Source: a virus
Lineage: Duplodnaviria; Heunggongvirae; Uroviricota; Caudoviricetes
IMG/VR virus record: IMGVR_UViG_3300032038_000051
Coordinates: 12,740-76,739 of that record
Direction: 5' to 3' (one strand)
DNA length: 64,000 bases
How positions within the stretch are numbered: the stretch's first letter is position 1; each line of letters opens with the position of its first letter. The position numbers and the translations under genes are program-made. Below are positions 14,518 to 41,310 of this stretch, one piece after another. The notes under the pieces are model-generated. The model was not told where the DNA came from, searched no databases, and worked only from the letters and a program-made list of their open reading frames with translations.

Positions 14518-14727
14518 ATGACGCAAGAAGAGCTCGACGCCAGGTTCGATTACCACCCGCCGAAGGGCTGCCAGCCCGCCAAGTACAGCCTCATCAGGGA
14601 CGAGGCCAAGGATTTTGCAAGAAAGGTAGACGCCTTTTGCCCGGAAGGCCGCGAGAAGTCGCTGGCCCTCACGAACATCGAGCAGGCGGTCATGTGGGCC
14701 AACGCCGCGATAGCAAGGAACGAGTAA
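14518..14727 (+). CDS. hypothetical protein
   Basis: ORF with RBS. Confidence 0.5.
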   Translation: MTQEELDARFDYHPPKGCQPAKYSLIRDEAKDFARKVDAFCPEGREKSLALTNIEQAVMWANAAIARNE

Positions 14728-26139: not shown

Positions 26140-26353
26140 GACTTACACGTGCGACCGCTGCGGCGCGCAGTTCGACGAAACGGACGGGTTCTCGCTTAGG
26201 CTCTACCACAAGTCACATGCACGTCGCGAATGGCACAAGTACGAAGCCGCGACTCTCGACTTCGACCTGTGCGAAAGCTGCGCGGGTGCCATAGCGGACG
26301 GAGTGAGGGACGTGGCTATGCACCGTGCGGCGGAGAAAGAGGTGACGGCATGA
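26126..26353 (+). CDS. zinc-ribbon protein
   Basis: CDRCGAQF...CESCAGAI. Confidence 0.45.
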   Translation: MARNKTYTCDRCGAQFDETDGFSLRLYHKSHARREWHKYEAATLDFDLCESCAGAIADGVRDVAMHRAAEKEVTA

Positions 26354-26604
26354 TAACGGAATGGAACATGATGCGCGACTCGGAGCCGCAACCCGGCGAG
26401 GGGAGGTTCCTGGTCATGGGCGTGAAGGGCGGCCTCTACATCGCCAAGGAGTACATGGACGACAGCGCCATCTGCGCCATCTTCGGTCGCTGCTTCCGCA
26501 CCTACAACGGGAACTACGTCGAGGCGGACAAGGTCGTGGCGTGGGCGGAGGTGCCGACGCTGGACGAGCTCATGTCCACGCGAGAACGGGGAGGTAAACG
26601 ATGA
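26350..26604 (+). CDS. hypothetical protein
   Basis: ATGA-coupled ORF. Confidence 0.45.
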   Translation: MITEWNMMRDSEPQPGEGRFLVMGVKGGLYIAKEYMDDSAICAIFGRCFRTYNGNYVEADKVVAWAEVPTLDELMSTRERGGKR

Positions 26605-28003: not shown

Positions 28004-28335
28004 GGACTTCGCAGGAGGATGGGCTGCTGCACAAGTACAGGCCGCTCCCCGAGGACGGTCCGCGCCACAAGAAGAGGACGAGGAAGGCCCACGTGAGGAG
28101 CGACCACAAGCACGCGTACGAGACGGTGTGCGTCGACTCGGGCGACTGGGTGTACGCGTGCGGCGAGCGGTACCACGTCTACCACACGGCGACGAGGTGC
28201 TCCGTGTGCGGAAGGATAGGGGACGTTACGATGCGCGACCTGCGCGAGGTTCCCGAGGACATGCCGCTTTACGAGGTCGACGGCATCAACGACCTGCTCG
28301 CAAAGACCCTGCCCGACGAGAGGAGGGCGTCATGA
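28000..28335 (+). CDS. zinc-ribbon protein
   Basis: CVDSGDWVYACGERYH...RCSVCGRIG. Confidence 0.5.
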   Translation: MRTSQEDGLLHKYRPLPEDGPRHKKRTRKAHVRSDHKHAYETVCVDSGDWVYACGERYHVYHTATRCSVCGRIGDVTMRDLREVPEDMPLYEVDGINDLLAKTLPDERRAS

Positions 28336-28994
28336 GCACGGGCTATGCCAGCCAGCTAACCAAGAAGTCGTTCCTTGCGGGCGCCCTGATATCGGTCGGG
28401 GCGCTCTTCTCGTTGGCGGCGAGGGAGTACGGGCCGGTGGTGCAGGGACTCTGCTTCGGCGTCGGCCTCACCGGAGTCATGTGGACCCAGTCGAGCCTGT
28501 TCACCGGCAGGGTGCTTGACTCGGGTGCGGTCATGCGCGCGGAGCCCGGCCACGAGCGGGCGACGGCGCTCGACAGGCTCGTCGGCGAGCTTACCGTCGC
28601 GTGGGCGCTCAACCTGCTTGGCGCCGTGGTCGTCGCCCTTCATGCGAGAGCGATGCACTTCGACGCGTCCGCCGTCGCGACGGCCAAGGCGGCGATGCCG
28701 TGGCGCGAGCTGGTCATACGCGCCATCTTCTGCAACGTCATGGTATGTCTGGCCGTGTTCGCGAACCGCCGCGCCAACGGATCGCCATTGGCGGCGCCCG
28801 TCATATGCGCGCTGCCGGTCGCCTGCTTCGTCGCGTGCGGGTTCGAGCACTGCGTGGCCGACATGCTGTACATGCCGCTCGGCTTTATGCAGGGGGCCGT
28901 CACCCCAATGGACTGCGTCCGCGTCATCGGACTCGCGACAGTCGGCAACGTCATGGGCGGAGTCGCGTTCGCATGGCTCGCGGAGGCGCGCTGA
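28332..28994 (+). CDS. formate/nitrite transporter (FNT) family channel protein, short form (~220 aa)
   Basis: SSLFTGR (FNT signature-1-like LFTG), IFCNVMVCLAV (signature 2 [GA]xxCN[LIVMFYW]2VC[LV]A), ACGFEHCVADMLYMP (FEH-IANM region); six hydrophobic segments. Confidence 0.7.
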   Translation: MSTGYASQLTKKSFLAGALISVGALFSLAAREYGPVVQGLCFGVGLTGVMWTQSSLFTGRVLDSGAVMRAEPGHERATALDRLVGELTVAWALNLLGAVVVALHARAMHFDASAVATAKAAMPWRELVIRAIFCNVMVCLAVFANRRANGSPLAAPVICALPVACFVACGFEHCVADMLYMPLGFMQGAVTPMDCVRVIGLATVGNVMGGVAFAWLAEAR

Positions 28995-30006: not shown

Positions 30007-30869
30007 ACAAGGACGAGAGGGCGCGCATGACCGAGTACCACAGGGGCTGGACCGACGGGCGAGCTGCGCGCACCGCCGACGAGTGGTCGCTCGACATGGA
30101 GCGCAAGGCGGTCTCACACAGGCTTCGCGGCGTCACCTTGCCGGAGGACGCCGACAGCTACGGGAATCTCAGCGCGATATGTGGCGCCATCTTCCACGCG
30201 AAGTACGGATGGACGCGCGGGGCGTGCGACGCGCTGCGCGAAAGGCTCGTGCACCTGCTCGTCGGCGATCGTGCGGACGTGCAGCCGGACGAGGCGACCG
30301 AGTTCGCGGACCGACTCAGGGAGTGCGCGGAGCACGGCGAGGACGTGACGCTCTTCGGCGTCGACTACACGCCGTCCAGCCGCGCGTCCGAGGAGTCGGA
30401 GCGGCTTGCGAGCTACGTCCTCGACATAGCGGACCACCTCGGAGTGGAGGCGGGCGACCACGATGGCCCCGCCGACGCGTACGCGAAGGTGGTCGAGAGC
30501 CTCCAGGACTACAACCCGCTCGACGACACCGCGGAGGCGGTCGCCGAGTACCACAAACAGCTCAGGAGGTGGATGGGCGAGGCGAAGAACCTCGCCGACG
30601 CGCTGAGGCAAAGGGTCGACGCGAGGCCCGCCAGCGTGGTGCCGGACGGGTACACGGAGCTTCCGAAGGTCAGCAACGGGCACGTGCACATGGGAGACAC
30701 CATCGAGTGGGACAGTCCGTCGGGCACGTGCGTGCTCGGGCCGATAGACCGCATCTCCCTGCAAGCCTACGGCACGAGCGTATTTTCGATGAGTTCCCCC
30801 AGCGGACGGTACATAACGGGCGACGAGAGGGTCGTGCGGCACAACGAGAAGGACGGAGAGCACGCATGA
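30003..30869 (+). CDS. hypothetical protein (288 aa)
   Basis: ATGA-coupled ORF. Confidence 0.55.
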   Translation: MNKDERARMTEYHRGWTDGRAARTADEWSLDMERKAVSHRLRGVTLPEDADSYGNLSAICGAIFHAKYGWTRGACDALRERLVHLLVGDRADVQPDEATEFADRLRECAEHGEDVTLFGVDYTPSSRASEESERLASYVLDIADHLGVEAGDHDGPADAYAKVVESLQDYNPLDDTAEAVAEYHKQLRRWMGEAKNLADALRQRVDARPASVVPDGYTELPKVSNGHVHMGDTIEWDSPSGTCVLGPIDRISLQAYGTSVFSMSSPSGRYITGDERVVRHNEKDGEHA

Positions 30870-31618
30870 GAGACAACATCGAGTTCATAGGCCAGTCCGT
30901 CGAGTACGTCGGCGGCTACGGCGGGGACGACACCATCGAGAGCGCCGCGAGGACGTGCACCCAGACGGTCGGGAGGAAGTCTGCGTCCGACTTCGTCAGG
31001 GGCCTCGTCAGGAGAGGACACATGTCCCCCACCGAGTTCGGTTTCGCCGACTTCCTCATCGAGGTCGACCGGGCCATCCAGCAGGAGCTCACGAGGCACA
31101 GACACTTCTCGTTCAACATCGAGAGCACCCGTTGGATTAACTACCTGAAAAAGCCGGTGCGCTTCGTCACGAAGCCCGCGAAGGGATGGGACGTGCCCGA
31201 CGAGGCGGTCGAGCTGCTCGAGCGGTGGTGCGAGCTGTCCGTGCTGGTGTACGAGGCGCTGCTCGCACTGCACGCCGACAGGGACTACGCCAGGAAGGCG
31301 TGGCCGCTCGCGCTGGCGTCCAACGTGAGGATGGCCGGCAACAGCCGCGCGTGGTTCGAGATGATCGCCAAGCGGATAGTCGGGGCCGCGCACCCGGAGG
31401 CGCGCGAGGTGGCGGTCGAGTGCGCTCGGGAGCTTGGAGGGCGGTTCGTCGGGCTGTTCTCGGCGAAGGCCGGCGGAAGATACAGGCCGAGGCAGCATAC
31501 CGCCAGGCCGCAGGGGTCGAACCACACCGTCGTGTCCGCGAACGTCGAGCTGTGGGACGACGACCCGCCGGCGTCGATCGAGCTCGGAAGCCACACGTAC
31601 ACCATCGAGTCCGCGTAG
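30866..31618 (+). CDS. thyX: flavin-dependent thymidylate synthase ThyX
   Basis: ThyX motif RHRHFSFNIES (RHR-x7-S), ~250 aa, FAD-binding N-terminal region. Confidence 0.85.
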   Translation: MRDNIEFIGQSVEYVGGYGGDDTIESAARTCTQTVGRKSASDFVRGLVRRGHMSPTEFGFADFLIEVDRAIQQELTRHRHFSFNIESTRWINYLKKPVRFVTKPAKGWDVPDEAVELLERWCELSVLVYEALLALHADRDYARKAWPLALASNVRMAGNSRAWFEMIAKRIVGAAHPEAREVAVECARELGGRFVGLFSAKAGGRYRPRQHTARPQGSNHTVVSANVELWDDDPPASIELGSHTYTIESA

Positions 31619-31691
31619 TGCGGTCGCGAGACAAGCAAGCCGTTTCAACGGGCCGTCCGCAGTGGGCGGCCCTCGTTCTTGGGAGGACGAG

Positions 31692-32624
31692 ATGTTCCAA
31701 CTTGTAATAGCCGTGATCCTGCTCCTCGTTGCGCTGGCGGCGCCGTCCGTCGTGAGGAGCTACAACAGGGAGTACAAGGCCGACGCGAGCGCGAGGCCGT
31801 TCGTGGTCGGCGCGCTGGCCTTAGCTGCGGTGGCGGTCGCCACGGCGTGCGTGTACGGGCAGGACGCAGGCGAGGTCATCGTCAGGATAAACCTCGGCGG
31901 GTCTCTTGCCGGCTATACGGAAGAGGCCGGCTTCCACGTCAAGGCCCCGTGGCAGAGCACGGTGAGCTACGACGTCCGAAACAATTTAATAAACTTGTAT
32001 CGCGACGCCGAGTACTCGTACGACGGCGGAGCCGCGGAAGGTGCGTGCGTGACCGTCAACGACAGAGGAGGGGCGTCGGCCGACATCGACCTCCAGGTGG
32101 TGTACTCGCTCGACGGGGCCTCAGCCCTCAAGCTCTACGAGGACTACGGCACGCAAGAAAAATTTACGTCCGACGTAATCCTCAACGCCGTGCGCGCGAC
32201 GGCACGCGAGGTGGCCGGAGCGTATGACACGATAACATTGCTCACCAACAGAGGGGAGTTCACCAAGGGGATCCGCGACGCGCTCACCTCGCGGTGGGCC
32301 GAGCTCGGGCTGAACGTCGAGCAGGTGTCCGTTCAGGACGTCCGCTACCCCGAGTCCATCAAGGACCGCTACGCCGAGGCGCAGGCAGCCGAGGTCGCCA
32401 AGGCCAAGGCGCTGAACGAGCAGGAGACCGCCCGCGTGACTGCCGAGACGAAGAAGATTAACGCGCAGGGCGAGGCCGACGCCAACCGAATCCTCACCGA
32501 GTCCCTCACTCCCGAGGTCATTCAGCAGCACTACATCGACACGCTCGGGGAGATAGGCAACAAGGGCAACATGGTCGTGGTTCCGCAGGGCTCGACGCCC
32601 ATGGTGCAGGTCGGTGAAAAATAA
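31692..32624 (+). CDS. SPFH/band-7 (stomatin/prohibitin/HflKC-like) membrane protein
   Basis: N-terminal TM anchor, SPFH core (QVSVQDVRYPESIKDRYAEAQAAEVAKA...) and C-terminal coiled-coil. Confidence 0.75.
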   Translation: MFQLVIAVILLLVALAAPSVVRSYNREYKADASARPFVVGALALAAVAVATACVYGQDAGEVIVRINLGGSLAGYTEEAGFHVKAPWQSTVSYDVRNNLINLYRDAEYSYDGGAAEGACVTVNDRGGASADIDLQVVYSLDGASALKLYEDYGTQEKFTSDVILNAVRATAREVAGAYDTITLLTNRGEFTKGIRDALTSRWAELGLNVEQVSVQDVRYPESIKDRYAEAQAAEVAKAKALNEQETARVTAETKKINAQGEADANRILTESLTPEVIQQHYIDTLGEIGNKGNMVVVPQGSTPMVQVGEK

Positions 32625-33419: not shown

Positions 33420-33527
33420 CGGCATGCACGTGCCACATTACGAGCCGACGCCAGTCAACGACGACGATTGGGCGTTCGGCATCTTCTACTCGAAGGCCAT
33501 ACGCAAGGCGATTGAGAGGTGGGGCTG

Positions 33528-34001
33528 ATGGCATGGGATGACGACAGGCCGTACGCGCCGTTCTACCTTGGAGAGGGCTCCAAGCCCAACCCAGACAGGA
33601 CGCGCCTTGAGCGGCTCGAGTACGAGAGACGGACCGGCGACATGGTCGAGCACGTCGACACGAACCCCGGCAAGGACGACATAGACGCGATGTACGCAGG
33701 CGCGCACGTGCCGGCATGGACGTACGACAGGTGGCGCGACTACGAGACCGACTACGCGTTCAGGCCGTTCAGGGAGGTTCGCCTCAAGCTGAGGCTCGCG
33801 GGCTTCTCGCCGCGCAGGAGCGCCGGCACGTTCATGTTCGAGGACGAGCATGGCCGCGCGTACCCGATGACGGCGGGCGAGTTCAACCGCCTGTGCGAGG
33901 ACGGCGTGCTGTCGTCCGAGATCGACGGCTTCTGGAGCGCCGTGAAGCGCGGACGGACGTACGGGGTGACGCTCGTGCGGCTGGCGGGGGAGGAGCCATG
34001 A
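33528..34001 (+). CDS. hypothetical protein
   Basis: ORF. Confidence 0.5.
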   Translation: MAWDDDRPYAPFYLGEGSKPNPDRTRLERLEYERRTGDMVEHVDTNPGKDDIDAMYAGAHVPAWTYDRWRDYETDYAFRPFREVRLKLRLAGFSPRRSAGTFMFEDEHGRAYPMTAGEFNRLCEDGVLSSEIDGFWSAVKRGRTYGVTLVRLAGEEP

Positions 34002-34459
34002 GGAACGCGGGGAACGCGGGCGTCGACTGGGAGATGGTCAGATGCGTCCTCGAAAAGTGCAGGCGGCCACAGGACGTCACCGACGGTCGCGAGTGCGTCA
34101 GCACGCAGGACGTCTTCTTTGACGCCCACAATGAGGTATTGCGTCGTCGCCTCATATGGGACGAGGACGAGCACAAGGCGTTCCAAGCGTCGTATTGCTA
34201 CGCCATCGACAAGGACCTCGTGGTGCTCGGAGGGTATCCGCCCCACCAACAGGTCTGGGGCCTGACCCACAAGGGCCGGGACCTGCTGTCCGTGCTGGAG
34301 AGCGACGGCGTGCTGCGGGAGGCGCTGTCGGCGGCGCGCGAGGGCGGCCTGTCGCTCACGGCGGACGCATTGATCGAGGCCGGCAGCCGCATCATGGCGG
34401 GGCGGATACTCGACGCAATCGCGAATAGGGGCAAGACGTCGAAGCATTTGGAGGCATGA
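33998..34459 (+). CDS. hypothetical protein
   Basis: ATGA-coupled ORF. Confidence 0.5.
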   Translation: MRNAGNAGVDWEMVRCVLEKCRRPQDVTDGRECVSTQDVFFDAHNEVLRRRLIWDEDEHKAFQASYCYAIDKDLVVLGGYPPHQQVWGLTHKGRDLLSVLESDGVLREALSAAREGGLSLTADALIEAGSRIMAGRILDAIANRGKTSKHLEA

Positions 34460-34463
34460 CCAG

Positions 34464-34778
34464 ATGACCAAGTACGTGGTCGACCTGCCCGACGACGTGA
34501 CGTGCGCGACATGCCCCATGGCGGACGCGGTGGGAGAGGACGTGGCCGTGTGCGCGCAAGGCGGAGGGTACGTCGCCACATGCATCGACCTCAGGCCAAC
34601 GTCCTGCCCCCTGCGTCGAGTCTCCGACTACACGCGCCCGCTTGAGTCGAAGATCACGTCGCAGCGCACCGCGATAGCGAGGCTCACCAAGCGCGAGGCG
34701 GTCTACAGGCGCGTCATGGCTAGCAAGGACGCGCAGATACTCGACCTCCTGAACAAGGTCGAGGGACGCGCCGAGTGA
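34464..34778 (+). CDS. hypothetical Cys-rich protein
   Basis: CATCP...CAQGGGYVATC...CPL. Confidence 0.5.
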   Translation: MTKYVVDLPDDVTCATCPMADAVGEDVAVCAQGGGYVATCIDLRPTSCPLRRVSDYTRPLESKITSQRTAIARLTKREAVYRRVMASKDAQILDLLNKVEGRAE

Positions 34779-34851
34779 CGGCGCGGAGCACATGAACTGT
34801 CAACGAGGGGACGGCAATCTGGCCGCCCCCTTTTTGTTGGAGGGAGAAAGA

Positions 34852-35988
34852 ATGAACGAGAACCGCAAGATGGCGACCGTGCGCAAGGTCGCCGGGACCA
34901 TGCCCATCGAGGGCGCCGACCGCATCGAGCGCGTCATGGTCGACGGGTGGGTGGTCATCGACCGCAAGGACGAGTGGCATGAGGGCGACCTCTGCGTCTA
35001 CCTCGAGCCCGACACCTTCGTCAGCAAGGACGTCGAGCCGCTGTCGTACCTCATGGCGAGGGGCACCAAGCGCATGGAGCACGACGGCGTGGAGTGCGAG
35101 GGGCATGTCCTGCGCACCATCCGGCTGCGCGGGGTCTACAGCGCCGGCCTCATTGCCAAGCCGTCCGACTTCTTCATGTCGCCGGACGAGGTTCGTGCGG
35201 CATACGAGAGCGGCGAGGCGCTCGACGAGCGCATCGGCGTCTGGGAGTATCAGAGGCAGGTCAAGTGCCCCGATGGCACCACGAGACAGGTCTCCAACCC
35301 CTACGACCAGAGCGTCGCGCCAGTCACAGACGCCCAGCGCATCCAGAACTGCGCCGACGTCTGGGACGCGCTCAAGAAGGTCGACGCGTACGCCACGGTC
35401 AAGGTCGACGGCATGAGCATGACCACGGTGCTCGACCCCCGCACCAACAGGTTGCGGCTCTTCTCGCACCACAGGGAGCTCGGCTACTCCGACGAGCCCG
35501 CCGACTCCGGCGCGTCCGACGCCACGAGGGGGCAGCGCTCCTACGACGCCGCCAAGGCGCAGGGCATCGTCGACTTCTGCCTCGGCCATCCGGGGATCAC
35601 GGTGCAGTACGAGCTGACGGGGCCAAAGATCCAGCGCGGCATCACCGGCGGGTTCAGGTGCCACGTGTTCGCCGTGTGGGACATGGCGAAGATGCGCAAG
35701 ATCCCCTACGACGAGATCGTCGAGAGCGGCTGGGACGCCATCGTGGCGTCGCACGTGAGGGTGCTCGACATGAGGGCGTCCGACTACGACACCGTGGCGG
35801 ACGCGCTGATGGCCGTCGACAAGCTGAGCGGGAACGTGGTCAAGGGCAAGCCCGACGAGGGCGTGGTCTTCCACGTGACCGGCCAAGGCTCCGCCGACGA
35901 GTACGAGTGGGCGCGCGTCAGGAACAAGCTGGGCCCGAACGCCGAGTTCAAGGTCGTGTCCCAGCGATACCTGTCGAAGGAGAAGTAG
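34852..35988 (+). CDS. ATP-dependent RNA ligase, DRB0094-like family
   Basis: N-terminal MATVRKVAGTMPIEGADRIERVMVDGWVVIDRKDEWHEGDLCVYLEPDTFV resembles the DRB0094-family start (..HPNADKLE..GW..VVKKGEF..GDL.VY.E.D); nucleotidyltransferase motif I VKVDGMSMT (KxDG). Confidence 0.7.
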   Translation: MNENRKMATVRKVAGTMPIEGADRIERVMVDGWVVIDRKDEWHEGDLCVYLEPDTFVSKDVEPLSYLMARGTKRMEHDGVECEGHVLRTIRLRGVYSAGLIAKPSDFFMSPDEVRAAYESGEALDERIGVWEYQRQVKCPDGTTRQVSNPYDQSVAPVTDAQRIQNCADVWDALKKVDAYATVKVDGMSMTTVLDPRTNRLRLFSHHRELGYSDEPADSGASDATRGQRSYDAAKAQGIVDFCLGHPGITVQYELTGPKIQRGITGGFRCHVFAVWDMAKMRKIPYDEIVESGWDAIVASHVRVLDMRASDYDTVADALMAVDKLSGNVVKGKPDEGVVFHVTGQGSADEYEWARVRNKLGPNAEFKVVSQRYLSKEK

Positions 35989-35990
35989 GC

Positions 35991-36623
35991 ATGGAACGCA
36001 GCTTCGAGGACGCGTTCTTCTGGTCGCTCAAGTACGACGGCTGGGACATGCACGCCGACGCCATGTACGAGTACCTGAGGGACCCGGCGAACAGGGATGA
36101 GTTCGGCAACGTGTGCTTCCCGCATGGCGCGAGCGCGTGCGTCACATACGACGACGTCGAGCGCGACAACCCGAACAGCATCCTGTGGATGTGCCTGGTG
36201 CAGATGTTCGGCGACTGCGGCGCGAGCCCGAGGTACGGCTGGATTCTCCACCCGGACGAGGCATGCGCGTGGCTGCGCAGGAGGCAGCGGGCCACGTACC
36301 ACTGCGGCCAGACGTTGCTCGACGACGGCGGCATGGTCTGGTCGCAGACCGACGAGGACATACGCGACGCCGTCGTCGCATGGGAAAGCACACGCACCGC
36401 CGCGTTCGAGAGGAGCGTCTGGGACGAGATCCACGCCGTCTTCGAGCGGGCGCAGGACAGATGGATCGCCGCATGCGAGGAGGAAAACCACGGCAGGCTG
36501 AGCGACGCGCAGTACGCCGCGTGCCTGAGGGCCTACGCGAGGTCAGTTGGCGACGCGATCCTGCGCGTCTCAATGGGGCTCGATTCGATGGTCGCGCCCC
36601 CCGACGGGACGGCGAAGCGATGA
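35991..36623 (+). CDS. hypothetical protein (210 aa)
   Basis: ORF directly after the RNA ligase. Confidence 0.55.
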   Translation: MERSFEDAFFWSLKYDGWDMHADAMYEYLRDPANRDEFGNVCFPHGASACVTYDDVERDNPNSILWMCLVQMFGDCGASPRYGWILHPDEACAWLRRRQRATYHCGQTLLDDGGMVWSQTDEDIRDAVVAWESTRTAAFERSVWDEIHAVFERAQDRWIAACEEENHGRLSDAQYAACLRAYARSVGDAILRVSMGLDSMVAPPDGTAKR

Positions 36624-36988
36624 GCGCCACTGGACTAGAGGGTCTGCTGCGAGACTTCGCGGCGGCCCTCCTCGGCCGCACGTCGTACTACGACACGGAT
36701 GAGACCGATGTGACGATAGCCGAGTTCATGCCCGAGTTCCTGACGACGCTCAAGCCCGACGGCTCGACCGGCTTCGAATGGCATCTGATGGCCGAGGACG
36801 TCCCGCCGGAGGGCAAGGGCGACTACGTCATCCTTGGCAAGCGCGGCGGTAAATACTACGCGAGCAGCTACAACACGTGGGCCAATGGGGCGGGCTACTT
36901 CTTTGTGCCAAACAACAGAGATTCCTACAAGTACGCGGAGGCAGTGAAGGCATGGGCGGTCATACCGCCACTGGAAGGAAGGGACTGA
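36620..36988 (+). CDS. hypothetical protein
   Basis: ATGA-coupled ORF. Confidence 0.5.
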   Translation: MSATGLEGLLRDFAAALLGRTSYYDTDETDVTIAEFMPEFLTTLKPDGSTGFEWHLMAEDVPPEGKGDYVILGKRGGKYYASSYNTWANGAGYFFVPNNRDSYKYAEAVKAWAVIPPLEGRD

Positions 36989-37659: not shown

Positions 37660-37835
37660 AGGTCACAGCCTCGCCGGAGATGAGGGCCATGCACGTGAAC
37701 GTCGTCATCAGCGTGAGGATGAACCAGACCGACCTGTGCAGGCCGGAGAACGTCGACGATATGACCGAGCGACTCACGAGGCGCTTGTACAAGCGGTTCT
37801 GCGAGAGGCTCGGCATCGAACCGGAGGAGGAGTGA
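37629..37835 (+). CDS. hypothetical protein
   Basis: ORF with RBS. Confidence 0.45.
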   Translation: MDYETFKDLVEVTASPEMRAMHVNVVISVRMNQTDLCRPENVDDMTERLTRRLYKRFCERLGIEPEEE

Positions 37836-38179
37836 TGAAGACACTGAAGGCGCCCGAGAGCGTCGTGTACGACTACGTCGCATCCTACGCGAGGGCGAAC
37901 GGCAGGGGGCCGACGTACAGGGAGATTGCGCACGCCCTCTCGGTGGGCACGACGACCATCAAGAAGAGGATAGACGCGCTGTCCGCGCAGGGCCTCGTCG
38001 AGCTGCCGAGGTGCGGCCCGAGGACGGGCGTGATGCCGTCCCCGAGGCCGTCGCACCCGGTCGAGACGGGCGTCGTCGACGGATGCCGCTCCATGCGGTG
38101 CGACGCGTGCGGCGGCGAGTACGTGATGGGCGCGTCGAGGTACCTGCTGTGCCCGATGTGCGGCACGCAGATAGCATGA
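37835..38179 (+). CDS. LexA-type winged-HTH DNA-binding protein with C-terminal zinc ribbon
   Basis: YDYVASYARANGRGPTYREIAHALSVGTTTIKKRIDALSAQGLVE resembles the LexA N-terminal DNA-binding domain; CDACGG...CPMCG. Confidence 0.55.
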   Translation: MKTLKAPESVVYDYVASYARANGRGPTYREIAHALSVGTTTIKKRIDALSAQGLVELPRCGPRTGVMPSPRPSHPVETGVVDGCRSMRCDACGGEYVMGASRYLLCPMCGTQIA

Positions 38180-40407: not shown

Positions 40408-40893
40408 ATGCCTGAAACCGATTTGCGAGCGCCGTGGGTAAACAAGGCCAAGGAAGTCGCCGGCCTTTTCGAGTACGACGACGAGGTCGAGGTCGAGTAC
40501 GAAGAGGAAGGCCCGACCGTCGTGCTCAATGTGGACAACCCCATCAAGGCAGAGTACTTGGGCAGGTGCATGCCCGAGGCGTACACCTTCGGCAACGTCG
40601 AGCTCGGCGTGAAGATCGTCCCGAGCAACGACGAGCCGACCATTGGGCAGATCATAAAGGCCGCGTTCATCGGCAACCCCGTGCTGTCCGACGTCGTGGT
40701 CGACCCGGAGCACGCCGCCGAGTACGCGCTCTTCCTTCCCGAGGTCTTCCAGTACGATTCCGACGACATCTCGTCCGCGTACGGCATTGCCACCAAGACG
40801 TACGAGGACGTCGCGAAGGGGGTTCTCGCCGTAGAGGCGGGGACGTTCATCTGCAGCGACGTGCTCGAGGAAGTCTTCGTCCCGCTCGACTAG
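40408..40893 (+). CDS. hypothetical acidic protein
   Basis: ORF; last CDS before the tRNA cluster. Confidence 0.55.
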   Translation: MPETDLRAPWVNKAKEVAGLFEYDDEVEVEYEEEGPTVVLNVDNPIKAEYLGRCMPEAYTFGNVELGVKIVPSNDEPTIGQIIKAAFIGNPVLSDVVVDPEHAAEYALFLPEVFQYDSDDISSAYGIATKTYEDVAKGVLAVEAGTFICSDVLEEVFVPLD

Positions 40894-40977: not shown

Positions 40978-41052
40978 CGCGGGGTAGAGTAACGGTCACT
41001 CGGCAGCCTCATGAGCTGCTACATGCCGGTTCGAGTCCGGCCCCCGCGACCA
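40978..41052 (+). tRNA. tRNA-Met (anticodon CAT), elongator-type or Ile2-like
   Basis: Cloverleaf folded by hand: acceptor CGCGGGG/CCCCGCG, D stem GAGT/ACTC, anticodon stem GCAGC/GCTGC with loop CTCATGA, T arm GCCGG-TTCGAGT-CCGGC, encoded CCA; C1-G72 paired; G at position 37 is unusual. Confidence 0.7.
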
Positions 41053-41053
41053 A

Positions 41054-41129
41054 GCCCGAGTAGCTCAGCTGGCAGAGCGGCTGCCTAGTAAGCAGCGGGT
41101 CACGGGTTCGATTCCTGTCTCGGGCTCCA
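41054..41129 (+). tRNA. tRNA-Thr (anticodon AGT)
   Basis: Acceptor GCCCGAG/CTCGGGC, D stem GCTC/GAGC, anticodon stem GCTGC/GCAGC with loop CTAGTAA, T arm ACGGG-TTCGATT-CCTGT, encoded CCA. Confidence 0.65.
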
Positions 41130-41143
41130 TGTCACACCCGTAC

Positions 41144-41231
41144 GGAGGCGTGGCAGAGCGGCAATGCAGCTCCCCGCTAAGGAGTACACGTCCGCCGACG
41201 TGCGTAGGTTCGATCCCTACCGCCTCCGCCA
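41144..41231 (+). tRNA. tRNA-Ser (anticodon GCT), type II with long variable arm
   Basis: Acceptor GGAGGCG/CGCCTCC, 3-bp D stem, anticodon stem GCTCC/GGAGT with loop CCGCTAA (C at position 33), long variable arm ACACGTCCGCCGACGTGCGT, T arm AGG(T)TCGATCC, encoded CCA. Confidence 0.65.
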
Positions 41232-41236
41232 TGAAC

Positions 41237-41310
41237 AGGCCCTTGATGTAACGGCAGCATGACGGTCTCCAAAACCGTCCGTGGGGGTTCGAGTCCCTCA
41301 GGGCCTGCCA
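41237..41310 (+). tRNA. tRNA-Trp (anticodon CCA)
   Basis: Acceptor AGGCCCT/AGGGCCT, anticodon stem ACGGT/ACCGT with loop CTCCAAA, T arm GGGGG-TTCGAGT-CCCTC, encoded CCA. Confidence 0.7.

What the first reader, a model, noticed from the sequence alone, without database searches (positions are those of the whole stretch)
34852..35988. DRB0094-family RNA ligase encoded about 5 kb from the tRNA cluster: candidate tRNA-repair counter-defence
The ORF has the N-terminal domain signature of the DRB0094 RNA ligase family and a KxDG adenylation motif. Phage RNA ligases are best known for resealing tRNAs cleaved by host anticodon nucleases. Co-occurrence with phage tRNAs suggests a two-pronged answer to tRNA-targeting immunity, replacement plus repair. 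No polynucleotide kinase/phosphatase was recognised nearby, so the adjacent unknown genes (33998-34459, 35991-36988) are candidates for end-healing partners.
Basis: partly seen in the sequence, partly recalled or inferred. Interest (0 to 1): 0.6.

Follow-up and report, generated by a model that had tools for sequence, protein, structure and literature searches.

The report
Phage Rnl5-type nick-sealing RNA ligase
The gene really does encode an intact RNA ligase of the Deinococcus/Naegleria "Rnl5" type, common in phages, but nothing in this window shows that its neighbours prepare broken tRNA ends for it, so the tRNA-repair role stays a plausible guess.

Summary
Observation confirmed. ORF 34852-35988 (+), 378 aa, has the Rnl5 architecture: an N-terminal OB domain (PF21189) plus an RNA-ligase nucleotidyltransferase domain (PF09414). 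It carries KVDG (K184) and intact motifs III (E254), IIIa (F273), IV (E336) and V (K367). A profile of its clade matches Naegleria NgrRnl at E 8e-101, against about 1e-5 for T4 Rnl2 and DNA ligases.

Interpretation partly supported.
- **Against:** characterised Rnl5 enzymes seal 3'-OH/5'-PO4 nicks in duplexes, not the 2',3'-cyclic-P/5'-OH ends that the literature read here describes for tRNA-cleaving nucleases. I found no kinase, phosphatase, RtcB or DNA ligase in the 64 kb.
- **Neighbours:** the proposed partner genes are ORFans. "35991-36988" is really two genes. The 210-aa protein is mostly helical and also occurs without a ligase. None of the immediate flanking genes is conserved next to the ligase in relatives.
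- **For:** across about 37 Rnl5 lineages in phage and MAG contigs, the gene repeatedly sits near tRNA genes (9 lineages within 2 kb), RtcB (6 lineages) or Pnkp (2 lineages). Two syntenic relatives keep the same arrangement, with a tRNA array about 5 kb downstream of the ligase. One of them has RtcB directly upstream of the ligase.

Verdict: an ordinary but divergent new member of a known family. The RNA-repair role is inferred, not shown.

The parts
34839..34846 (+). Ribosome-binding site GGAGGGAG, 5 nt upstream of the ATG at 34852
   Evidence: Read directly from the sequence. It supports 34852 rather than 34792 as the start, and homologues share the MNENRK N-terminus.
34852..35988 (+). Rnl5-family (DraRnl/NgrRnl-type) ATP-dependent RNA ligase gene, 378 aa
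   Evidence: PF21189 plus PF09414. PHROG 968 at E 4.8e-42. NgrRnl 5COT at E 1e-17 with the single sequence and 7.8e-101 with the clade profile. GC3 is 0.94, typical of the window's genes.
34870..35154 (+). N-terminal OB domain (aa 7-101), the signature module of Rnl5. R5 and D54 correspond to the ATP/metal contacts Arg4 and Asp53 of NgrRnl.
   Evidence: PF21189 E 8.6e-21. R5 is found in 44 of 46 homologues and D54 in 46 of 46. The residue roles come from PMC7261155.
35326..35340 (+). T159-D160-A-Q-R163, equivalent to NgrRnl Thr145/Asp146/Arg149 (ribose and ATP gamma-phosphate contacts)
   Evidence: Alignment with the NgrRnl sequence added. T is found in 43 of 46 homologues and R in 45 of 46.
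35401..35412 (+). Motif I, K184-V-D186-G187. K184 is the predicted adenylylated lysine.
   Evidence: Invariant in 46 of 46 homologues. Aligns to NgrRnl 170-KLDG (PMC4408790).
35464..35469 (+). Motif Ia position, S205-H206. His replaces the Lys of DraRnl (S185-K186) and the Arg of NgrRnl (R190).
   Evidence: this column is His in 25 and Arg in 21 of 46 homologues. His is invariant in the 20 closest relatives. DraRnl K186 is essential for adenylylation (PMC1807946), so this is a clade-level variant whose effect is unknown.
35605..35613 (+). Motif III, Q252-Y-E254 (equivalent to NgrRnl Glu227)
   Evidence: Q252 and E254 are invariant.
35668..35670 (+). Motif IIIa aromatic residue F273 (matched to DraRnl F281 by motif order and invariance; no DraRnl alignment was made)
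   Evidence: Invariant column. The role of F281 is from PMC1807946.
35857..35868 (+). Motif IV, E336-G-V-V (equivalent to NgrRnl Glu312 and DraRnl 305-EGVVV)
   Evidence: E336, G337 and V339 are invariant.
35950..35952 (+). Motif V lysine K367 (equivalent to NgrRnl Lys326 and DraRnl Lys326). The protein ends 11 residues later, so there is no C-terminal domain.
   Evidence: Invariant in 46 of 46 homologues. The alignment to NgrRnl runs to its C-terminus.
40978..41310 (+). tRNA array (Met-CAT, Thr-AGT, Ser-GCT, Trp-CCA), 4,990 bp downstream on the same strand. This is context, not a demonstrated partner.
   Evidence: ARAGORN and Rfam. Relatives L092 (4 tRNAs at +5.3 kb) and L013 (8 tRNAs at +5.5 kb) keep the same arrangement. 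No terminator-like site lies on the + strand between 31672 and 43718.
35991..36623 (+). 210-aa ORFan starting 2 nt after the ligase stop codon. Tested as a candidate end-healing partner and not supported.
33998..34459 (+). 153-aa ORFan upstream of the ligase. Tested as a candidate partner; no support, and the structure test was inconclusive.
   Evidence: No family hit. Only 3 homologues, all 85-90% identical. The AF2 model has pLDDT 41 and is unusable. The Walker-A-like string AIANRGKT sits at residue 140 of 153, too near the C-terminus to begin a P-loop domain.

Best explanation
The gene encodes a catalytically intact, divergent member of the Rnl5 family of ATP-dependent polynucleotide ligases (prototypes DraRnl and NgrRnl).

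**Mechanism, inferred by homology.**
1. K184 attacks ATP to form ligase-AMP. The catalytic metal is held through D186, E254 and E336. The triphosphate is held by K367 and R163, with help from the N-terminal OB domain (R5, D54).
2. AMP is transferred to a 5'-PO4 end.
3. A 3'-OH ribonucleotide end attacks, sealing a nick held in register by base pairing.

**Biological role, inferred from context only.** It is carried in the early/accessory arm of a large phage of gut or rumen Coriobacteriia. It most likely acts as an RNA-break sealer in the phage's RNA-maintenance toolkit, alongside the phage tRNAs, on broken RNAs that still hold together through helices (nicked tRNAs are the obvious candidates).

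In this 64-kb window it stands alone. It could therefore only seal ends that already carry 3'-OH and 5'-PO4. Otherwise it must rely on a kinase/phosphatase or RtcB encoded by the host or by the unsequenced rest of the phage genome. The genes flanking it are not its partners.

**Confidence by part.** Enzyme identity and competence about 0.9. RNA-repair (rather than DNA-side) role about 0.5. tRNA as the specific substrate about 0.3.
For: **Identity**
- Domain architecture and E-values.
- All residues that contact ATP or metals in the NgrRnl Michaelis complex are conserved, except the dispensable Lys121 (PMC7261155, PMC1807946).
- There is no C-terminal domain.

**Role**
- In Microbacterium phage Cece the homologue lies inside the tRNA array, 2.3 kb from an RtcB-like ligase.
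- In a T4-like Aeromonas phage it lies 2.3 kb from Rnl1 and 4.6 kb from polynucleotide kinase.
- Across 160 phage and MAG loci, about 37 lineages at 60% identity:
  - a tRNA lies within 10 kb in 16 lineages, within 2 kb in 9 and within 500 bp in 5;
  - RtcB lies within 10 kb in 6;
  - a Pnkp match (full kinase-phosphatase in L033, phosphatase half only in L043) lies within 10 kb in 2.
- The RtcB and Pnkp identities were confirmed by Pfam.
- A within-locus shift test for tRNA proximity gives a combined p of about 0.009.
- Syntenic relatives L013 and L092 keep the order ligase, then homologues of 38732, 39208 and 40408, then the tRNA array. L013 has RtcB 356 bp upstream of the ligase.
- A published comparative analysis already proposes that phage tRNAs are supplemented by RNA ligases (PMC7824862).
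Against: - No end-healing enzyme or RtcB was found in 64 kb.
- The anticodon-loop attacks described in the literature I read come from metal-independent RNases, which leave cyclic or 3'-phosphate ends (PMC7824862). M. tuberculosis VapC toxins leave 5'-OH (PMC6459853). Rnl5 cannot use such ends directly.
- Characterised Rnl5 enzymes need a duplex nick. An anticodon-loop break is not a duplex nick.
- In this window the tRNAs are about 5 kb and 11 genes away, a distance that is not significant on its own.
- A first version of the proximity test, which let tRNAs overlap the ligase gene, gave p = 0.23. I corrected the null after seeing that result.
- tRNAs and accessory genes both tend to collect in the same variable regions, which could produce this association without any functional link.
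- Several lineages place the gene next to a DNA ligase or a primase-helicase instead.
- The motif Ia Lys/Arg is His here, so activity is not guaranteed.
Confidence: 0.6

Rival explanations
1. DNA-side role. The ligase seals nicks whose 3'-OH side ends in ribonucleotides, such as RNA-primed or ribonucleotide-patched ends. It would do this during phage DNA replication, recombination or repair, working with the phage RecT/YqaJ/SSB/clamp machinery.
For: - DraRnl and NgrRnl seal nicks with an RNA 3'-OH strand and a DNA 5'-PO4 strand. Deleting DraRnl sensitises Deinococcus to ionising radiation, and the authors raise a DNA-repair function (PMC5397189).
- The window carries RecT, YqaJ, SSB, a DnaN clamp, RusA, dUTPase and ThyX on the same strand. 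I found no DNA ligase in the window.
- In KPP10 the homologue lies 1.5 kb upstream of the primase/helicase and DNA polymerase genes.
- An ATP-dependent DNA ligase lies 0.5-0.9 kb away in L044, L054, L081 and L085. A primase-helicase family recurs near the ligase in 4 ligase clusters.
Against: - Association with RtcB, Pnkp and tRNA genes is seen in more lineages than association with DNA ligase.
- In this window the recognisable replication and recombination genes all fall in the 1-26.6 kb part of the window scanned, at least 8 kb from the ligase.
- A phage that pairs this gene with its own DNA ligase does not need it for DNA sealing.
Confidence: 0.2
2. The ligase is a dedicated tRNA-anticodon-break repair enzyme, and the adjacent unknown genes (33998-34459, 35991-36988) supply the kinase and phosphatase end-healing activities, as T4 Pnkp does for Rnl1.
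For: - The downstream genes are tightly packed: the 210-aa gene starts 2 nt after the ligase stop, and the next gene overlaps it.
- Family-level links to RNA-repair genes exist elsewhere.
- In L033 a genuine Pnkp ends 28 bp before the ligase start, so such pairings do exist.
Against: - The neighbours have no kinase or phosphatase hit in Pfam, PHROGs, NCBIfam or PDB sequences.
- The 210-aa protein is mostly helical, with no Rossmann or P-loop sheet.
- Its family usually comprises only the N-terminal ~140 aa and occurs without any ligase.
- None of the flanking genes accompanies the ligase in L001-L005, L012, L013, L092 or L093.
- The only Walker-A-like string is at the extreme C-terminus of the 153-aa ORF.
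- Rnl5 is not the Rnl1-type loop-sealing ligase.
Confidence: 0.05
3. The protein is a decayed or repurposed ligase homologue. For example, it might only bind RNA, or adenylylate something else, because the motif Ia basic residue is lost.
For: - Motif Ia is Ser-His here, whereas DraRnl K186 is strictly required for adenylylation (PMC1807946).
- The protein scores below the TIGR02306 equivalog cut-off.
- Relative to NgrRnl there is an insertion of about 24 aa between motifs IV and V.
Against: - Every catalytic and metal-binding residue is invariant across the clade.
- His at motif Ia is invariant in the 20 closest relatives and found in 25 of 46 family members. That pattern indicates purifying selection on a working variant rather than decay.
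- The reading frame is intact and codon usage is native.
Confidence: 0.05

Closest known systems
Naegleria gruberi RNA ligase NgrRnl (PDB 5COT; Rnl5 family)
   Same: Same two-domain architecture: an N-terminal OB domain, then the NTase domain, with no C-terminal domain. The clade profile matches it at E 7.8e-101 over its full length. Equivalents of Arg4, Asp53, Thr145, Asp146, Arg149, Lys170, Asp172, Glu227, Glu312 and Lys326 are all present.
   Different: The pairwise match is weak (phmmer E 1e-17). The protein is 378 aa against 339. It has an insertion of about 24 aa between motifs IV and V and a longer linker between the OB and NTase domains. The Lys121 equivalent is Glu, and the Arg190 (motif Ia) equivalent is His. 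It comes from a phage, not a eukaryote.
Deinococcus radiodurans DraRnl (DR_B0094), founder of the family; NCBIfam TIGR02306
   Same: Motifs I, III, IIIa, IV (EGVV) and V are present as defined by the DraRnl alanine scan (PMC1807946). The N-terminal OB module is present.
   Different: It scores 63 bits against the TIGR02306 cut-off of 151. Motif Ia is S-H rather than S-K. DraRnl lies close on the megaplasmid (DR_B0094 vs DR_B0098) to an operon that includes a 5'-OH polynucleotide kinase (PMC5397189). I found no kinase here.
Phage Rnl5 homologues annotated 'RNA ligase' (PHROG 968), e.g. Microbacterium phage Cece gp153, Pseudomonas phage KPP10 gp041, Aeromonas phage 50AhydR13PP gp156
   Same: Same family and length class. 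310 phage records carry a homologue and 491 IMG/VR stretches encode one. Cece and others place it among tRNA genes.
   Different: Identity to any isolated phage is at most 33%, and 30% or less over near-full-length matches. The close clade (40-61% identity) is known only from metagenomes of gut and rumen origin. Cece and L013 pair it with RtcB. This window does not.
T4 Rnl1 + Pnkp tRNA-repair pathway (counter to the PrrC anticodon nuclease)
   Same: A phage-encoded ATP-dependent RNA ligase. The conceptual model is 'repair what the host breaks'.
   Different: Different ligase family: Rnl1 is the ligase of the T4 anticodon-break repair pathway (own knowledge). No Pnkp is found in the window. Rnl5 needs a templated nick and pre-healed ends (PMC4408790, PMC1807946).
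T4 Rnl2 (nick-sealing RNA ligase)
   Same: Same in vitro substrate class: a 3'-OH RNA / 5'-PO4 nick in a duplex (PMC5397189). It is a distant NTase homologue, profile E 2.5e-5. Its biological role in phage is likewise unknown.
   Different: Rnl2 has a C-terminal domain for nick recognition. Rnl5 uses an N-terminal OB domain instead (PMC1807946).

Membership tests
Rnl5 (DraRnl/NgrRnl) RNA ligase family | Signature N-terminal OB domain (Pfam PF21189) | tested here: met
   E 8.6e-21, 74.6 bits against a cut-off of 27, aa 7-101.
Rnl5 (DraRnl/NgrRnl) RNA ligase family | Covalent nucleotidyltransferase domain with motif I KxDG lysine | tested here: met
   PF09414 at 33 bits against a cut-off of 27. 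K184-V-D-G is invariant in 46 of 46 homologues and aligned to NgrRnl K170.
Rnl5 (DraRnl/NgrRnl) RNA ligase family | Motifs III, IIIa, IV and V with the essential Glu, Phe, Glu and Lys | tested here: met
   E254, F273, E336 and K367 are invariant columns. The equivalents were shown to be essential in DraRnl and NgrRnl (PMC1807946, PMC7261155).
Rnl5 (DraRnl/NgrRnl) RNA ligase family | Motif Ia Ser followed by a basic residue (S-K in DraRnl; R190 in NgrRnl) | tested here: inconclusive
   Here it is S205-H206. The column is His in 25 and Arg in 21 of 46 homologues. His is conserved within the clade, but its functional equivalence is untested.
Rnl5 (DraRnl/NgrRnl) RNA ligase family | No C-terminal domain after motif V | tested here: met
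   The protein ends 11 aa after K367, and the alignment reaches the NgrRnl C-terminus.
Rnl5 (DraRnl/NgrRnl) RNA ligase family | NCBIfam TIGR02306 equivalog trusted cut-off | tested here: not met
   63.4 bits against a cut-off of 151.15. This is a divergent subclade. It is a member of the family in the broad (Pfam / structural-homologue) sense, not at equivalog level.
Rnl5 (DraRnl/NgrRnl) RNA ligase family | Seals 3'-OH/5'-PO4 nicks only when the 3'-OH strand is RNA; Mn2+-dependent; forms lysyl-AMP | not testable with these tools
   This is a biochemical property (PMC4408790, PMC1807946) and needs recombinant protein.
T4-type heal-and-seal tRNA repair system (Pnkp + ligase) | A 5'-OH polynucleotide kinase and a 2',3'-cyclic/3'-phosphatase encoded alongside the ligase | tested here: not met
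   - No such family turned up among about 120 window ORFs scanned with Pfam. In one search only the 25 best of 45 families were listed.
The same query did recover true Pnkp genes in L033 and L043, confirmed by Pfam.
- This covers only the 64-kb window. The phage genome is larger.
T4-type heal-and-seal tRNA repair system (Pnkp + ligase) | Rnl1-type ligase specialised for anticodon-loop breaks | tested here: not met
   The ligase here is Rnl5. The best PDB matches are NgrRnl, then Rnl2 and DNA ligases, and no Rnl1 appears.
RtcB direct-ligation repair | An RtcB gene (PF01139) in the locus | tested here: not met
   Absent from the window. Present 356 bp upstream of the ligase in the syntenic relative L013, and near the ligase in 5 other lineages.

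The most novel reading that the evidence does not exclude
In this lineage of Coriobacteriia phages, the Rnl5 ligase and the tRNA array belong to one conserved module. Sister phages add RtcB to it, and possibly a metallophosphoesterase. Rnl5 would then be the 'clean-end' arm (3'-OH/5'-PO4) of a two-ligase tRNA-repair system that complements RtcB, and phages would keep Rnl5 to undo nicks in the helical parts of tRNAs made by a so far uncharacterised class of host nuclease. That would supply the first physiological substrate for the Rnl5 family, whose function is described as 'uncharted'.
Probability: 0.2. Interest if true: 0.6.

Novelty: new member of a known kind. Interest (0 to 1): 0.3.

Why it matters
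On its own this is a routine annotation: a divergent Rnl5 RNA ligase in an uncultured phage. The wider point is that no physiological role is known for Rnl5 ligases in any organism (PMC5397189). The comparative pattern found here places Rnl5 genes near tRNA genes, RtcB or Pnkp in about 14 of 37 phage/MAG lineages. This lineage also has a conserved ligase-to-tRNA-array arrangement. Together these give a concrete, testable hypothesis and point to tractable isolated phages for testing it, such as Microbacterium phage Cece and the T4-like Aeromonas phages. The analysis also warns against carrying the T4 Rnl1/Pnkp story over to any phage gene labelled 'RNA ligase'.

Tried and rejected
1. **Recovering the source contig.** I wanted to see the roughly 14.6 kb outside the window. 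The identical protein P0001 is recorded on a 78.6-kb contig. Exact-protein look-ups failed for both candidate starts and for P0001 itself. An exact 50-nt search with the window's first bases in metagenome contigs found nothing. Absence of Pnkp or RtcB is therefore shown only for the window.
2. **Near-identical phage in INPHARED.** None found.
3. **Structure test of the 153-aa neighbour.** The model has pLDDT 41 and is unusable.
4. **Fold search of the 210-aa neighbour.** Only generic helical matches. Its profile against PDB sequences also found nothing.
5. **Conserved ORFans between the ligase and the tRNAs (38732, 39208, 40408).** PDB-sequence, Pfam and PHROG searches found nothing.
6. **VapC as a source of ligatable ends.** I considered that PIN-domain VapC toxins might give directly ligatable 5'-PO4 tRNA breaks. 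I rejected this because the literature reports 5'-OH products for M. tuberculosis VapCs (PMC6459853).
7. **First tRNA-proximity permutation test.** It allowed tRNAs to overlap the ligase gene and gave p = 0.23. After excluding impossible placements the result is p = 0.009. The null was changed after seeing the first result, and the test covers only 12 informative lineages with no matched control gene family, so I treat the signal as modest.
9. **Remnant of RtcB in the window.** I looked for one at the position syntenic with L013. None was found even at E = 10.
Full report
**1. What is at 34852-35988**

An intact + strand ORF of 378 aa starts at the ATG at 34852. A GGAGGGAG ribosome-binding site sits 5 nt upstream. 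An in-frame ATG also exists at 34792, but homologues begin with the same MNENRKMATVR sequence, so 34852 is the better start. GC3 is 0.94, like the other genes in the window.

Family matches:
- Pfam gives PF21189 (the PHA02142/DRB0094-type OB domain; E 8.6e-21; aa 7-101) followed by PF09414 RNA_ligase (E 8.5e-8; aa 180-343).
- PHROG 968 'RNA ligase' matches end to end at E 4.8e-42.
- Against PDB sequences, the single protein finds only Naegleria gruberi RNA ligase at a significant level, E 1e-17.
- A profile built from 46 homologues matches NgrRnl over its whole length at E 7.8e-101. T4 Rnl2 and ATP-dependent DNA ligases follow at about 1e-5 to 1e-3.

The protein therefore groups with Rnl5 and not with DNA ligases or capping enzymes. 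The NCBIfam equivalog model TIGR02306 (RNA_lig_DRB0094) scores 63 bits against a cut-off of 151. An exhaustive search of 1.84 billion cluster representatives finds 3,511 relatives at E<=1e-3 but only 23 at E<=1e-30. This is a small, divergent subclade of a large family.

**2. Motifs**

[quoted passage not shown] I did the same for the positions shown to be essential in DraRnl (PMC1807946). All of the following are present:
- R5 and D54 in the OB domain, equivalent to Arg4 and Asp53.
- T159, D160 and R163, equivalent to Thr145, Asp146 and Arg149.
- K184-V-D186-G187, motif I.
- E254, motif III.
- F273, motif IIIa.
- E336-G-V-V, motif IV.
- K367, motif V.

K184, D186, G187, E254, F273, E336 and K367 are invariant in 46 of 46 sequences. 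The protein ends 11 residues after K367, so it has no C-terminal domain, as expected for Rnl5.

Deviations:
- The Lys121 equivalent is Glu. The K121A mutant of NgrRnl was well tolerated.
- The motif Ia basic residue is His206. The column is His in 25 and Arg in 21 of 46 sequences, and His is invariant among the 20 closest relatives.
- An insertion of about 24 aa lies between motifs IV and V.

**3. The neighbours**

None of 33519-34001, 33998-34459, 34464-34778, 35991-36623 or 36620-36988 hits any Pfam, PHROG or NCBIfam model.

The 210-aa protein:
- It has 16 detectable homologues. Most are proteins of about 140 aa that cover only its N-terminal domain.
- In the contigs I could inspect, these homologues lie with no RNA ligase nearby, for example directly after a Band_7 gene in L006.
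- Its AlphaFold model (pLDDT 78) is mostly helical with two tiny hairpins.

The 153-aa protein:
- It has three near-identical homologues, and its model is unusable at pLDDT 41.
- Its one Walker-A-like string (AIANRGKT) is at residue 140 of 153 and cannot begin a P-loop domain.

In the closest ligase-bearing contigs (L001-L003 at 54% identity; L004, L005 and L012 at 41%; L092 at 44%; L093 at 40%; L013 at 37%), the genes that flank the ligase differ from those in the window. The idea that the adjacent ORFans are end-healing partners therefore has no support. For the 210-aa protein there is positive evidence against it.

**4. The rest of the window**

I called about 130 ORFs from third-position GC content and scanned about 120 of them against Pfam.

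Recognisable functions on the + strand arm (1-43.5 kb):
- RecT, a YqaJ exonuclease, SSB, a DnaN clamp, RusA, dUTPase, an N6/N4 methylase and an IstB-like ATPase.
- An Acb2/Tad1-type hairpin protein and Lar.
- A formate/nitrite transporter (28332-28994).
- ThyX (30866-31618).
- An SPFH/Band_7 protein (31662-32624).
- A LexA-type winged-helix protein (37832-38179).

The convergent − strand arm (43.6-63 kb) gave only HNH, Lar, HTH and zinc-ribbon hits.

I found no polynucleotide kinase, HAD, HD or metallophosphatase, 2H phosphoesterase, RtcB or DNA ligase. tblastn with RtcB, T4 Pnkp, a Cys-phosphatase and a DNA ligase also found nothing in the window, even at E = 10.

I found no structural genes either, and the identical ligase protein is recorded on a 78.6-kb contig. 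The phage genome is therefore clearly larger than the window, and absence in the window is not absence in the phage. I could not retrieve the remainder.

The likely host group is ruminant-gut Coriobacteriia. The closest genome hits are contigs from an Atopobiaceae MAG and a Coriobacteriaceae MAG, followed by Bifidobacterium species. The window's GC content is 62.7%.

**5. What the family is known to do**

- DraRnl and NgrRnl seal 3'-OH/5'-PO4 nicks in duplexes only when the 3'-OH strand is RNA. They use the classic lysyl-AMP pathway, and the OB domain is needed for adenylylation and nick sealing (PMC1807946, PMC4408790, PMC7261155).
- Their physiological roles are called 'uncharted'. The one genetic result is that a DraRnl deletion sensitises Deinococcus to ionising radiation. 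The authors leave open whether Rnl5 and Rnl2 enzymes act in DNA repair, RNA repair or both (PMC5397189).
- The tRNA-repair ligase of T4 is Rnl1, which works with Pnkp.
- A widespread attack on tRNA is anticodon-loop cleavage. [quoted passage not shown]
- I checked whether PIN-domain VapC toxins might be an exception. The literature reports 5'-OH products for them too (PMC6459853).

A stand-alone Rnl5 therefore cannot, by itself, reverse the known tRNA attacks.

**6.

Rnl5 homologues are common in phages: 310 INPHARED records and 491 IMG/VR stretches.

Isolated phages:
- In Microbacterium phage Cece, the best isolated-phage hit, the gene lies inside the giant tRNA array and 2.3 kb from an RtcB-like ligase.
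- In a T4-like Aeromonas phage it lies 2.3 kb from Rnl1 and 4.6 kb from polynucleotide kinase.
- In Pseudomonas phage KPP10 it lies just upstream of the primase/helicase and DNA polymerase genes, with no tRNA nearby.

Systematic survey. I fetched 80 IMG/VR loci and 80 genome or MAG loci with ±10 kb flanks. I located tRNAs with ARAGORN and searched for accessory enzymes. After collapsing to about 37 ligase lineages at 60% identity:
- 16 lineages have a tRNA within 10 kb, 9 within 2 kb and 5 within 500 bp. One Ruminococcus group has a tRNA-Gln about 30 bp upstream on the same strand.
- 6 lineages have RtcB within 10 kb.
- 2 lineages have a Pnkp match within 10 kb.
- The RtcB calls (L013, L052, L060, L091) and the Pnkp calls (L033 with the full kinase plus HAD_PNKP; L043 with the phosphatase half) were confirmed by Pfam.
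- Adjacent ATP-dependent DNA ligases (L044, L054, L081, L085) and a recurring primase-helicase family show that some lineages put the gene in a replication context instead.

Statistics. A within-locus circular-shift test of tRNA proximity, using one representative per lineage, gave a combined p = 0.23 when tRNAs were allowed to land on the ligase gene. It gave p = 0.009 when such impossible placements were excluded. I corrected the null after seeing the first result. The signal is real but modest. It has no matched control gene family and is open to the confound that tRNAs and accessory genes share variable regions.

This lineage. L013 (116-kb IMG/VR contig) and L092 (Atopobiaceae MAG contig) are syntenic with the window. 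L013 shares the FNT transporter, DUF6440 and Band_7 genes (Band_7 at 74% identity). Both then share the ligase, homologues of 38732, 39208 and 40408, and a tRNA array starting 5.3-5.5 kb downstream of the ligase. L013 also carries:
- RtcB 356 bp upstream of the ligase, where the window has its ORFans;
- homing-endonuclease genes on both sides;
- a borderline metallophosphoesterase hit between the ligase and the tRNAs, at 21.1 bits against a cut-off of 21.5.

On the + strand of the window, the simple scan finds no terminator-like site between 31672 and 43718. This is compatible with, but does not show, co-transcription of the ligase and the tRNAs.

**7. Conclusion**

- **Inferred by homology.** The three-step adenylylation and nick-sealing mechanism, with a requirement for an RNA 3'-OH and a 5'-PO4.
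- **Inferred from context, with moderate confidence.** It belongs to the phage's RNA-maintenance repertoire together with the tRNAs.
- **Not supported.** The flanking ORFans are not healing enzymes, and this gene alone cannot reseal anticodon-nuclease breaks. A DNA-side role in sealing ribonucleotide-terminated nicks remains a serious rival.

The concept of tRNA supply plus RNA ligation is already published for large phages (PMC7824862). This is a new member of a known kind and of modest interest. Its main value is the comparative lead on the still-unknown biology of Rnl5.

Noticed in passing
window 28332-28994 (+): A formate/nitrite transporter family protein (PF01226, E 1.5e-37) is encoded in the phage arm. 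Homologues are present in related contigs L001-L003, L006, L013 and L092. This is unusual cargo for a phage and is conserved across this phage group.
   Followed up: partly
window 14518-14727 (+); L001 10306-10650: A small protein is homologous to an ORF in L001 and L002 that overlaps the gene annotated there with the Acb2/Tad1 hairpin domain (PF24729). The window's first 26 kb also contains one PF24729 hit at E 2.7e-22. It is probably an anti-CBASS/Thoeris signal sponge. Two Lar restriction-alleviation genes are also in the window.
   Followed up: partly
window 40408-40893 (+); L092 15789-16352; L013 16024-16551: A 161-aa ORFan lies directly upstream of the tRNA array in the window and in both syntenic relatives (51% and 35% identity). 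It has no Pfam, PHROG or PDB-sequence hit.
   Followed up: partly
L006 771-2222: A related phage contig that has the 210-aa-family gene but no ligase encodes a TROVE/Ro60 plus vWA protein (PF05731, PF25045), an RNA quality-control component.
   Followed up: no
L013 7663-8505, 8548-9648, 11202-12065, 14674-15261: In the syntenic 116-kb relative, the RtcB-Rnl5 pair is bracketed by HNH_3 and I-HmuI-like homing-endonuclease genes. A borderline calcineurin-like phosphoesterase (21.1 bits against a cut-off of 21.5) lies between the ligase and the tRNAs. A YAcAr SLOG-domain gene lies upstream.
   Followed up: partly
window 31662-32624 (+) and 30866-31618 (+): An SPFH/Band_7 membrane-scaffold protein (E 8e-29; 74% identical to the L013 homologue) and a ThyX thymidylate synthase lie just upstream of the ligase block.
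   Followed up: no
window 1-64000: No capsid, terminase or tail family appeared among the Pfam hits returned for the 64 kb. The window is two convergent arms of mostly small genes meeting near 43.6 kb, and the − strand arm has lower GC3. The phage genome must be considerably larger than the window.
   Followed up: no
window 36620-36988 (+) and 26350-26604 (+): Both window proteins match the same ORF in L004 and L012 (44% and 35% identity), so a short domain appears to recur in these phages. I did not compare the two window proteins directly. Function unknown.
   Followed up: no
L007 4753-5901: An IS605 OrfB/TnpB (Cas12f-like) gene sits inside a related phage contig. A similar element recurs near the ligase in the L014-L030 group, for example L023 5650-6867.
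   Followed up: no
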